Of a stretch of DNA of 64,000 nt, positions 49,917 to 50,998 are shown piece after piece (the stretch's first letter is position 1; each line of letters opens with the position of its first letter). The notes below the pieces were generated by a model. That model was not told the DNA's origin. It made no database searches and was given only the letters and a program-made list of their open reading frames with translations. Position numbers and translations under genes: made by a program. This DNA is from an archaeon. Lineage in GTDB: Archaea > Thermoproteota > Nitrososphaeria > Nitrososphaerales > Gagatemarchaeaceae. The stretch is taken from positions 10,981 to 74,980 of the forward strand of contig JAKAUC010000007.1 in the NCBI GenBank assembly GCA_021827865.1, given 5' to 3'.

Positions 49917-50820
49917 CCTGAACGCCCTCCTGCACCCCGCCTCAGGCCTCGCCGTCCCTGTTGTCCTGGGGATCGCCCTGATCCTTGGGATGCTCCACGG
50001 GCTGACGCCCGACGAGCACACTTGGCCGATTACGTTCAGCTACTCCGTGGGCAGCTACAGCACCAGGGGCGGCATGCGGGCGGGGTTCATGTTCTCCGGA
50101 GGGTTCACTGTCCAACGGACCATACTGGCAGCTCTCGGCTTCGCCGGCCTCGCCGCGGTCTACGAGACTTACAACCTCGACGGGTACGTCTACGTGCTGG
50201 TAGGCATAGGCATGCTCCTCGCGGGGTACTACCTCCTGAGGGGCACGGACGTGCACCTCCCTCTGGACAGGCTTCTGGGCGGCAAGGAGCACCACACGAC
50301 CAAGGCGGAGCGGCTCCCCATGCACGAGTCCGAGGAGACAGCCAAGCCTGTGCCGCTGAAGATGGCCACCGCTCACGGTTTCATCGCCGGCTGGGGGATA
50401 GGAGCCTATGCTAGCATAATCGTGTTCATACTCGCGCCACAGATGCCCAACATATTCTACGCCGCCCTGGTCGGCACCTTCTTCGGGATAGGGACCATGT
50501 TCATGCAGATAATCATCGGTTCAATCTTCGCCAACATAATGAGGGTCAAGAAGCTCACTGTCGAGCAGATAAAATACATCGGCAGGTCTGCGGCCGCAAG
50601 AACCCTCTACCTTGGCGGTCTCGCGTTCGCTGCCATCGGCGCGCTGATAGTGGCCTTCCCTTTCATTGATACCATGGCCGTAGGCACGGGTAACCCCATA
50701 CCCAACCTGTCCTCCGTCGGCATCTCTTCAGTACTGGTCCTCCTCACGGTGGGGGTGATCGGATTCGGGAACCTCTACCTTGGGTACAAAGAAATCACGA
50801 GCCCTTCTCGCGCTGGGTAA
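49909..50820 (+). CDS. Polytopic membrane protein, putative metal transporter (NicO/UreH-like)
   Basis: LHGLTPDEHTWPI resembles the H-x3-P-x-H metal motif of Ni/Co transporters. The gene is coupled to the DtxR-like gene by an 8-nt overlap. Confidence 0.45.
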   Translation: MFDLNALLHPASGLAVPVVLGIALILGMLHGLTPDEHTWPITFSYSVGSYSTRGGMRAGFMFSGGFTVQRTILAALGFAGLAAVYETYNLDGYVYVLVGIGMLLAGYYLLRGTDVHLPLDRLLGGKEHHTTKAERLPMHESEETAKPVPLKMATAHGFIAGWGIGAYASIIVFILAPQMPNIFYAALVGTFFGIGTMFMQIIIGSIFANIMRVKKLTVEQIKYIGRSAAARTLYLGGLAFAAIGALIVAFPFIDTMAVGTGNPIPNLSSVGISSVLVLLTVGVIGFGNLYLGYKEITSPSRAG

Positions 50821-50829
50821 GCACAAAAG

Positions 50830-50932
50830 TGGACCGGGGGGGATTCGGACCCCCGACCTCTCCCAGTCTGGATTTCTTTGCCAAGGGACTGGACGGAGCG
50901 ACCTGTATCCTACCAGACTAGACGACCGGCCC
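50830..50932 (-). tRNA. tRNA-Ala(GGC) with two introns (16 nt at 27/28, about 50889-50904; 13 nt next to the anticodon loop, about 50865-50877)
   Basis: Hand fold. Acceptor GGGCCGG/CCGGTCC with G3:U70 and A73. D arm GTCT-AGTCTGGTA-GGAT. After removing 16+13 nt the anticodon arm is CTCCC-TTGGCAA-GGGAG. Variable loop AGGTC. T arm GGGGG-TCCGAAT-CCCCC. Mature length 74 nt. Confidence 0.6.
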
Positions 50933-50998
50933 TCAATTCCGGGCCTGGGAGCGCGCCGTTAAAAGAGTTGGAGGCGCTGAGGGGAAGAGCCGCTTGGT

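What the first reader, a model, noticed from the sequence alone, without database searches (positions are those of the whole stretch)
50830..50932. tRNA-Ala(GGC) with two introns, one inside the anticodon stem (27/28)
The acceptor stem has the Ala identity pair G3:U70 and A73. The 46-nt anticodon region only gives a perfect CUCCC/GGGAG stem and a UUGGCAA loop after removing two segments. These are AGGUCGCUCCGUCCAG (16 nt) and a 13-nt segment at the 3' side of the loop. The precursor can form an alternative long helix CCAGUC/GACUGG.
Basis: partly seen in the sequence, partly recalled or inferred. Interest (0 to 1): 0.6.

Follow-up and report, generated by a model that had tools for sequence, protein, structure and literature searches.

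The report
Two-intron alanine tRNA gene, thaumarchaeal
This is a real alanine tRNA gene (anticodon GGC) of an uncultured soil or peat thaumarchaeon, broken by two short introns that hide it from standard tRNA finders; it is a good new example of a known archaeal phenomenon, not a new kind of thing.

Summary
Confirmed. On the minus strand, 50932-50830 encodes a 103-nt precursor of tRNA-Ala(GGC). ARAGORN and the Rfam tRNA model miss it. Removing 16 nt (50904-50889, between positions 27/28) and 13 nt (50878-50866, canonical 37/38) gives a 74-nt cloverleaf that ARAGORN calls Ala(GGC), with G3:U70 and A73. Its second is shifted by one nucleotide: position 38 is U, not A.

Both inserts sit in bulge-helix-bulge (BHB) splicing motifs. 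Intron 1 is a relaxed HBh' form whose 4-bp helix borrows the 3' strand of the D-stem (GGAU/GUCC). In 32 distinct orthologous inserts this helix is always possible, and the adjoining hairpin stem co-varies. Pair 28:42, formed only after splicing, switches U-A/C-G. Relatives that lack the insert join exactly at 27|28.

The host belongs to the Nitrososphaerales, not the Thermoproteales. The genome encodes two EndA paralogues and RtcB, and no other Ala(GGC) gene, although GCC is its commonest alanine codon. Multi-intron tRNAs are already documented in Thaumarchaeota, and this scan confirmed a three-intron tRNA-Ser in the same window.

The parts
50830..50932 (-). Whole tRNA-Ala(GGC) gene, a 103-nt precursor from G1 (50932) to discriminator A73 (50830). 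No CCA is encoded.
   Evidence: Full-length orthologues at 78-96% identity in the same genus.
50905..50932 (-). Exon 1, tRNA positions 1-27: 5' acceptor strand, D-arm (GUCU / AGUCUGGUA / GGAU), A26, C27.
   Evidence: Cloverleaf drawn by ARAGORN after splicing. D-stem and acceptor pairs hold in 100% of cells across 15 orthologues.
50889..50904 (-). Intron 1, 16 nt, AGGUCGCUCCGUCCAG, between positions 27 and 28. Layout: A | GG-UCGCU-CC hairpin (h') | GUCC (pairs with G22-U25) | AG.
   Evidence: Unique deletion that restores the C27-G43 and U28-A42 pairs. Orthologues without it read GGATAC|CCCC. In 32 distinct inserts, H is possible in 32/32 and h' of at least 2 bp in 31/32. The h' pair takes 5 pair types.
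50907..50910 (-). G22 G23 A24 U25, the 3' strand of the D-stem. In the precursor it serves as one strand of the 4-bp BHB helix of intron 1.
   Evidence: Pairs with GUCC (50894-50891) in 15/15 orthologues, with U-G changing to C-G once (helix 2).
50879..50888 (-). Exon 2, positions 28-37: U28 CCC UU GGC A37. Anticodon GGC is at 50882-50880.
   Evidence: Pair 28:42 is U-A in 8 and C-G in 7 orthologues.
50866..50878 (-). Intron 2, 13 nt, AAGAAAUCCAGAC, at the canonical 37/38 site. Layout: A | A-GAAA-U minimal hairpin | CCAG (pairs with U32-G35) | AC.
   Evidence: ARAGORN intron mode gives i(39,13) once intron 1 is removed. H2 is paired in 100% of cells. Intron-less homologues read TTGGCATGGG, giving U38. 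Relatives with only this intron score 51.6-54.2 bits on Rfam tRNA.
50830..50865 (-). Exon 3, positions 38-73: U38, GGGAG, variable loop AGGUC, T-arm GGGGG/UCCGAAU/CCCCC (C55 instead of U55), 3' acceptor strand, A73.
   Evidence: C55 also occurs in other tRNAs of this genome.
50959..50966 (-). TCTTTTAA, an isolated A/T-rich box 27-34 nt upstream of G1. Probably a TATA box.
   Evidence: Read directly. A comparable A/T box sits at the same distance in all 15 orthologous loci, in otherwise GC-rich DNA. Function is inferred.
50819..50829 (-). CUUUUGUGCUU directly after A73, a T-rich stretch of the kind that ends archaeal tRNA transcripts.
   Evidence: Read directly. Function is inferred and the stretch is only weakly conserved.

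Best explanation
This is a functional gene for tRNA-Ala(GGC) in a Nitrososphaerales (thaumarchaeal) genome, transcribed from the minus strand as a 103-nt precursor with two introns. Each intron is presented to the archaeal splicing endonuclease in a bulge-helix-bulge (BHB) motif. Intron 2 (13 nt, 37/38) uses the standard arrangement: U32-G35 pair with CCAG of the intron, flanked by the bulges C36 A37|A and A C|U38, with the anticodon stem on one side and a minimal A-U/GAAA hairpin on the other. Intron 1 (16 nt, 27/28) uses a relaxed HBh' arrangement. Its 3' segment GUCC pairs with G22-U25, displacing the normal D-stem partner GUCU. The bulges are A26 C27|A and A G|U28, and a GG/CC hairpin inside the intron supplies the outer helix. 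No helix is available on the exon side. The two motifs do not overlap, so both can form at once. The genome's two-subunit EndA (catalytic alpha plus structural beta, the form known to accept relaxed motifs) would cut at the four sites and RtcB would join the three exons. The D-stem and the full 5-bp anticodon stem can form only afterwards, and CCA is added after transcription. Shown here: sequence, exon/intron borders, motif geometry, conservation and covariation, and presence of the enzyme genes. Inferred: actual cleavage, ligation, order of events and expression.
For: The spliced 74-mer is called tRNA-Ala(GGC) by ARAGORN, and removing intron 1 alone gives Ala(GGC) with a canonical 13-nt intron. 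The double-BHB precursor structure is paired in 99.7% of cells in 15 orthologues, with 0/500 shuffles reaching its covariation score, and the h' pair occurs as GC 6, CG 4, AU 3, GU 1, UA 1. Pair 28:42 spans intron 1 and is U-A in 8 and C-G in 7. Among 32 distinct insert-1 sequences of 14-21 nt, H is possible in 32/32 and h' of at least 2 bp in 31/32, while bulge bases vary (A/G/U; AG/AA/AU). Orthologues lacking intron 1 join exactly at C27|N28, and intron-less copies are called Ala(GGC) by ARAGORN and score 55 bits on Rfam. No other Ala(GGC) gene exists in the 99%-complete assembly. GCC is 46% and GCU 11% of alanine codons in long ORFs. There are two tRNA_int_endo ORFs. The 185-aa one is most similar to the catalytic chains of crenarchaeal (alpha-beta)2 enzymes (3P1Z_B, E=3e-43), and the 181-aa one is divergent with no His at the aligned catalytic position. 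RtcB is intact. A TATA-like box sits at a conserved distance. Literature: Thaumarchaeota carry multiple non-canonical tRNA introns (PMC8450103) and alpha2beta2 endonucleases (PMC4090602).
Against: Nearest-neighbour folding does not predict the double-BHB fold for the naked precursor: the MFE is -44.5 kcal/mol against -29.6 for the BHB fold, mainly because of a 10-bp D-arm x intron-2 helix. The same program also fails to give the cloverleaf for the mature sequence, so this argument is weak. Intron 2's inner helix h' is a single A-U pair in this species. The T-loop has C55 instead of the nearly universal U55, although four tRNAs of this genome share that. The subunit roles of the two EndA paralogues rest on alignment only. 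The assembly has 7.5% estimated contamination.
Confidence: 0.9

Rival explanations
1. Same gene and same first intron, but the second intron has the reader's borders (AGAAAUCCAGACU, between 38/39), giving A38 in the mature tRNA.
Against: BHB geometry (4-bp helix U32-G35/CCAG, then a 3-nt bulge cut after its second base) places the cuts after A37 and before U38. ARAGORN's intron mode places it at 37/38. All intron-less homologues have U38 (TTGGCATGGG). Relatives whose introns have no A-run (e.g. CA|UGACUAAGCCCCAAGC|U) also give U38.
Confidence: 0.04
2. This is a decaying tRNA pseudogene. The two inserts are junk insertions that are never removed, and alanine GCC/GCU codons are read by another tRNA.
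For: Standard finders do not call it. It has the unusual C55 and a weak D-stem with two G-U pairs.
Against: It is kept in 39 genomes of four genera with compensatory changes in exon stems and in the intron hairpin. It is the only G34 alanine tRNA gene although GCC is the commonest alanine codon. A promoter-like box is conserved. C55 is shared with other tRNAs in this genome.
Confidence: 0.02
3. A different tRNA with a different exon structure, for example the tRNA-Arg(CCG) with a long variable arm that ARAGORN reports when only the second segment is removed.
For: ARAGORN outputs Arg(CCG) for that partial construct. It likewise mis-calls the one-intron orthologue L017 as Pro(UGG) when run without intron mode.
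Against: That fold has a mismatched anticodon stem and D-stem (drawing). It ignores the G3:U70/A73 alanine identity set. It is incompatible with the 28:42 covariation and with intron-less orthologues that are plainly Ala(GGC).
Confidence: 0.01
4. The precursor's functional fold is the reader's long helix CCAGUC/GACUGG, or the alternative register GGAU/GUCC at precursor nucleotides 44-47, rather than two BHB motifs.
For: Both pairings are possible in this sequence, and RNAfold uses the second register in its MFE.
Against: The long helix is unpaired in 4, 6 and 1 of 15 orthologues at three of its six pairs and equals the shuffled controls. The alternative register is broken in 7 of 15, wherever position 28 is C. 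Neither places splice sites in bulges.
Confidence: 0.02

Closest known systems
Multi-intron tRNA genes with non-canonical BHB introns in Thaumarchaeota/Nitrososphaeria, as handled by the Thaumarchaeota-specific intron model of tRNAscan-SE 2.0 (PMC8450103)
   Same: Same phylum-level host, short introns at non-canonical sites combined with a canonical 37/38 intron, BHB-type junctions, two-subunit EndA. A three-intron tRNA-Ser in this same window was already confirmed by this scan (note e1-3923925).
   Different: This isoacceptor and site (Ala-GGC, 27/28) in this uncultured family is not named in any paper I could read. I could not run tRNAscan-SE to see whether it already calls the gene.
Multi-intron tRNAs of Thermoproteales (Pyrobaculum, Thermofilum, Caldivirga; Sugahara 2007/2008, Fujishima 2010, as cited in PMC4090602 and PMC3218864)
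   Same: Two to three introns per gene, relaxed HBh'/hBH motifs, (alpha-beta)2 endonuclease, introns in stems that force an alternative precursor fold.
   Different: The host is a different class. I saw no sign that intron 1 shares sequence with introns of other tRNA genes in this genome, whereas Thermoproteales introns form families spread across genes. CCA is not encoded here.
Canonical archaeal 37/38 tRNA intron with strict hBHBh' motif (Marck and Grosjean 2003, as cited in PMC4090602)
   Same: Intron 2 matches it: anticodon-loop bases 32-35 pair with the intron, there are two 3-nt bulges, and the anticodon stem acts as the outer helix.
   Different: Very short (13 nt), with the inner helix reduced to one A-U pair closing a GAAA loop. 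While intron 1 is present the outer helix is only 3 bp.
Heavily interrupted tRNA genes of Asgard archaea (bioRxiv 10.64898/2026.10.13.758758)
   Same: Inserts in or next to the D-arm are what standard annotation misses. Comparison with uninterrupted orthologues, without using the motif, defines the inserts. Gains and losses are lineage-specific.
   Different: Different phylum, and here there is one site in one gene rather than a genome-wide census.

Membership tests
tRNA-Ala (archaeal, anticodon GGC) | G3:U70 wobble pair in the acceptor stem and discriminator A73 | tested here: met
   Read directly. G3:U70 is invariant in all 13 orthologues with a complete 3' end.
tRNA-Ala (archaeal, anticodon GGC) | Cloverleaf with a 7-nt anticodon loop carrying GGC at 34-36 after removal of intervening sequences | tested here: met
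   ARAGORN calls the spliced 74-mer tRNA-Ala(ggc). Naturally intron-less orthologues are called the same and score 55 bits on RF00005.
tRNA-Ala (archaeal, anticodon GGC) | Charged with alanine and used in translation | not testable with these tools
   Indirect only: it is the sole G34 Ala gene in the assembly, and GCC+GCU make up 57% of alanine codons.
Archaeal BHB tRNA intron | Two 3-nt bulges on opposite strands separated by a 4-bp helix, with splice sites after the second bulge base | tested here: met
   Intron 1: GGAU/GUCC with bulges AC|A and AG|U. Intron 2: UUGG/CCAG with bulges CA|A and AC|U. The cuts so defined give exactly the mature sequence.
Archaeal BHB tRNA intron | Strict form hBHBh': an outer helix of at least 2 bp on both sides | tested here: not met
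   Intron 1 has h' (GG/CC, co-varying) but no exon-side helix h, so it is the relaxed HBh' form. Intron 2 has h (3-5 bp) but h' is a single A-U pair in this species. The gene is filed under the relaxed class, which is a recognised class (PMC4090602).
Archaeal BHB tRNA intron | Actual excision by the splicing endonuclease and ligation of the exons | not testable with these tools
(alpha-beta)2 heterotetrameric EndA, the broad-specificity type | Two separate paralogous subunit genes of about 180 aa | tested here: met
   185-aa and 181-aa ORFs, each with tRNA_int_endo_N plus tRNA_int_endo domains.
(alpha-beta)2 heterotetrameric EndA, the broad-specificity type | A catalytic Tyr/His/Lys triad in one subunit only, and the crenarchaea-specific loop in that subunit | tested here: inconclusive
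   The 185-aa protein aligns without a gap to A. pernix 3P1Z_B through the loop region and keeps FAVY..IDHAP..VRKQF. The 181-aa protein shows KKPAKYVV where the His lies. No residue-level structural check was made.
Thermoproteales-type transposed tRNA introns | Near-identical intron sequences recurring in unrelated tRNA genes of the same genome | tested here: not met
   Inspection of 25 long tRNA genes of this genome by eye and by motif found no other insert resembling intron 1. This was not an exhaustive alignment.

The most novel reading that the evidence does not exclude
The two introns may be removed in a fixed order set by the precursor's fold. In this genus a 10-bp helix between the D-arm 5' half (UCUAGUCUGG) and the 3' end of intron 2 plus exon 3 (CCAGACUGGG) would hold the D-stem open. 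That frees GGAU to build the BHB of intron 1 (hybrid fold -38.3 kcal/mol against -29.6 for the double-BHB fold). Only after intron 1 is removed and the RNA refolds would the canonical BHB of intron 2 form. Intron 2 would then act as a folding chaperone for excision of intron 1.
Probability: 0.06. Interest if true: 0.5.

Novelty: new member of a known kind. Interest (0 to 1): 0.3.

Why it matters
The gene supplies the only tRNA able to read GCC, the commonest alanine codon in this genome, yet ARAGORN and the Rfam tRNA model do not report it. Genome annotations of this uncultured Nitrososphaerales family that rely on those tools would therefore appear to lack an essential tRNA. The locus is also a clean natural series for studying tRNA intron turnover. 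Within one family the same gene occurs with one, two or three introns. The 27/28 intron shows how a short insert can borrow a D-stem strand to build its own splice motif, which is the kind of relaxed substrate that explains why these archaea keep a two-subunit endonuclease. It does not change what is known about how archaeal tRNA splicing works.

Tried and rejected
- ARAGORN and Rfam (gathering and E<=10) on the raw locus found no tRNA, only noise hits such as plastid UTR motifs and tmRNA fragments matching the T-arm.
- The alternative register GGAU/GUCC at precursor nucleotides 44-47, which RNAfold uses, is broken in 7/15.
- The D-arm x intron-2 10-bp helix is paired in 98.6% of cells within the genus, but all its columns are nearly invariant, so there is no covariation. 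Eight of the ten pairs are forced by other constraints and only the two bulge bases are free. The duplex is weak (-2 to -9 kcal/mol) in 8 of 31 relatives. I treat it as a by-product.
- Thermodynamic folding was not usable to decide between models, because it does not recover the cloverleaf even for the mature sequence.
- The first collection scan used too loose a pattern. It did reveal the Nitrososphaerales affiliation.
- Literature search for the specific site '27/28' was impossible because slashes and two-character terms cannot be searched. PMC1852824 is not held.
- A search for intron-1-like sequences in other tRNA genes of the genome found none.

Full report
**The observation**

The plus strand at 50830-50932 reads as nothing recognisable. 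The reverse complement is GGGCCGG UC GUCU AGUCUGGUA GGAU AC [AGGUCGCUCCGUCCAG] UCCC UUGGCA [AAGAAAUCCAGAC] U GGGAG AGGUC GGGGG UCCGAAU CCCCC CCGGUCC A. ARAGORN on the window, ARAGORN on the local region, Rfam at gathering thresholds and Rfam at E<=10 all fail to call a tRNA here. In precursor numbering, nucleotide i lies at window position 50933-i.

**Splicing in silico**

It has a 7-bp acceptor stem with G3:U70, A73, a 5-bp anticodon stem CUCCC/GGGAG and a 5-bp T-stem. Removing only the first segment gives Ala(GGC) with a 13-nt intron that ARAGORN places at the canonical site, i(39,13), which is 37/38. Removing only the second gives a poor 'Arg(CCG)' fold with mismatches, which I reject.

**Comparative test that does not use the splicing motif**

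A search of 40 related genomes found full-length copies at 78-96% identity in the same genus, and I aligned them.

- Two relatives (L016, L017) lack the first insert exactly, reading GGATAC|CCCC.
- A pattern scan of 300 genomes of the order found the insert in 39 genomes of the host's own family: 32 of genus g1 including this one, 5 of g21, 1 of g23 and 1 of g20.
- Four genomes of the family have the gene without the insert (G013, G145, G265, G165).
- All matched copies in five other families also lack it.
- Shifting the deletion by one base either way destroys the C27-G43 or N28-N42 pair, so the borders 27|28 are unique.
- Naturally intron-less orthologues are called tRNA-Ala(GGC) by ARAGORN (L034, L067) and score 55 bits on RF00005. 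Orthologues with only the 37/38 intron score 51.6-54.2 bits. L001 (this gene) and the three-intron L008 get no hit. Insert 1 is therefore what blinds the standard tools.

**Structure and covariation**

I wrote three structures onto the 15-sequence alignment.

- Double-BHB precursor: paired in 99.7% of cells, 0 of 500 shuffles reach its covariation score, and it beats every slid control. The second pair of the intron-1 hairpin occurs as GC 6, CG 4, AU 3, GU 1, UA 1.
- Mature cloverleaf: also 99.7% paired. Pair 28:42, whose partners lie on either side of both introns, is U-A in 8 and C-G in 7 sequences.

Across all 32 distinct insert-1 sequences from the order-wide scan (14-21 nt), the layout is always one base, a hairpin, GUCC (twice GUCU, once GUUC, all still able to pair with GGAU), then two bases. 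The 4-bp helix is possible in 32/32 and a hairpin stem of at least 2 bp in 31/32. The three bulge bases vary (A/G/U; AG/AA/AU).

**Anatomy of the two motifs**

The archaeal BHB rule is taken from established knowledge (Marck and Grosjean 2003, as summarised in PMC4090602). On each strand there is a 4-nt helix segment, then a 3-nt bulge cut after its second base, then an outer helix.

- Intron 2 fits this in the ordinary way. U32 U33 G34 G35 pair with C C A G (U-G, U-A, G-C, G-C). The bulges are C36 A37|A and A C|U38. The outer helices are the anticodon stem and an A-U pair closing GAAA. This fixes the intron as AAGAAAUCCAGAC (50878-50866) and position 38 as U, as in every intron-less homologue (TTGGCATGGG).
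- Intron 1 uses G22 G23 A24 U25, the 3' strand of the D-stem, against GUCC of the intron. The bulges are A26 C27|A and A G|U28, with GG/CC as the inner helix. There is no exon-side outer helix, so it is the relaxed HBh' form.
- GUCC gives one more G-C pair than the D-stem's own GUCU, so the D-stem cannot form until the intron is removed.
- The two motifs occupy precursor nucleotides 23-45 and 46-71 and do not overlap, so neither needs prior removal of the other.

**Enzymes**

The assembly encodes two tRNA-intron-endonuclease paralogues.

- The 185-aa protein has both Pfam domains. It is most similar to the catalytic chains of the Aeropyrum and Pyrobaculum (alpha-beta)2 enzymes (3P1Z_B E=3e-43, 3AJV_B, 2ZYZ_B). 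It aligns through the loop region and keeps the Y...H...K positions.
- The 181-aa protein is more divergent and has no His at the aligned position, as expected of a structural beta subunit.
- RtcB is intact with a 501-aa open frame.

PMC4090602 assigns alpha2beta2 enzymes to Thaumarchaeota and links them to relaxed motifs. [quoted passage not shown] Cleavage and ligation at this locus are inferred, not shown.

**Need for the gene and expression signals**

ARAGORN with introns allowed finds Ala(CGC) and Ala(UGC) genes but no other Ala(GGC) in the 99%-complete assembly. The pattern scan and a regular-expression search find only this copy. In 416 long ORFs, GCC is 46% and GCU 11% of alanine codons (a rough count, since some long ORFs in a 62.5% GC genome may be spurious). 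An isolated A/T box (TCTTTTAA here; GCTTAAAG, GGATAACTAG and others elsewhere) lies 25-35 nt upstream of G1 in all 15 loci. CCA is never encoded.

**Host**

Named records with identical or near-identical genes are 'Nitrososphaerales archaeon' or 'Thaumarchaeota archaeon' MAGs from soil, peat and groundwater. Nitrosopumilales copies have no intron at all. This agrees with the earlier follow-up on the three-intron tRNA-Ser in this window (note e1-3923925). The tRNAscan-SE 2.0 paper states that Thaumarchaeota tRNA genes are known to have multiple non-canonical introns, includes a Thaumarchaeota-trained BHB model, and reports 107 such introns in the genomes it analysed (PMC8450103). The category is therefore known. 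I found no paper naming this gene or site, but I could not search for '27/28' as a term.

**Caveats**

- RNAfold gives an MFE of -44.5 kcal/mol for the naked precursor, dominated by a 10-bp helix between the D-arm 5' half and CCAGACUGGG. The double-BHB fold scores -29.6, and a hybrid fold (that helix plus the correct BHB-1) scores -38.3.
- The helix lies in invariant columns, so it cannot be tested within the genus. Eight of its ten pairs are forced by other constraints, and it is weak in 8 of 31 relatives. I regard it as incidental and keep an ordered-splicing reading at about 6%.

**Verdict**

This is a genuine two-intron tRNA-Ala(GGC). It is a new member of a known kind, of modest interest.

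Noticed in passing
L008 1501-1634 and L012 1501-1632 (also L037, L064, L065, L103, L149): In some species of the same family the orthologous tRNA-Ala(GGC) carries a third intron of about 30 nt in the T-loop at 59/60. It has a strict hBHBh' motif: H = UUCG/CGGA or CGAG, bulges AA|U and UA|U, the T-stem as outer helix, and a 9-bp internal hairpin. So the gene occurs with one, two or three introns within one family.
   Followed up: partly
window 50842-50848 (T-loop UCCGAAU); G000 C18:47575-47661, C15:13438-13528, C13:446484-446581, C18:47684-47798: Position 55 of the T-loop is C instead of the almost universal U (pseudouridine 55) in this tRNA. The same is true of tRNA-Thr(GGU), one Val(UAC) copy and a tRNA that ARAGORN labels Ala(UGC) in this genome. 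One further tRNA has G55. In tRNA-Ala(GGC), C55 is shared by several sister species and alternates with U55.
   Followed up: partly
whole genome G000: ARAGORN with introns allowed finds no credible gene for many isoacceptors (Asp, Ile, Met, Tyr, Lys-UUU, Gly-UCC, Glu-UUC, Cys-GCA, three Ser). Rfam tRNA gives only 37 hits above threshold. Many hits are 90-126 nt long with inserts in the variable loop, D-arm or anticodon arm. The genome appears to be rich in non-canonical introns overall.
   Followed up: partly
window 50913-50922 with 50862-50871: There is a 10-bp complementarity between the D-arm 5' half (UCUAGUCUGG) and the end of intron 2 plus exon 3 (CCAGACUGGG). It dominates the predicted MFE fold of the precursor. 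In L117 a D-loop C-to-U change is matched by G-to-A in the intron, but 8 of 31 relatives have only weak complementarity.
   Followed up: yes
G000 C11:31815-31905 vs C15:13438-13528; G148 and G293 (two Ala-GGC copies each): Near-duplicate tRNA genes lie on different contigs, for example two Val(UAC) genes that differ at a few bases including U55/C55. This fits the 7.5% contamination estimate, or two co-binned strains, rather than true paralogues.
   Followed up: no
L017 1501-1592: The ARAGORN call in its default mode labels the one-intron Ala(GGC) orthologue as tRNA-Pro(UGG), because it absorbs the intron into a long variable arm. This is a caution for automatic annotation of these MAGs.
   Followed up: yes
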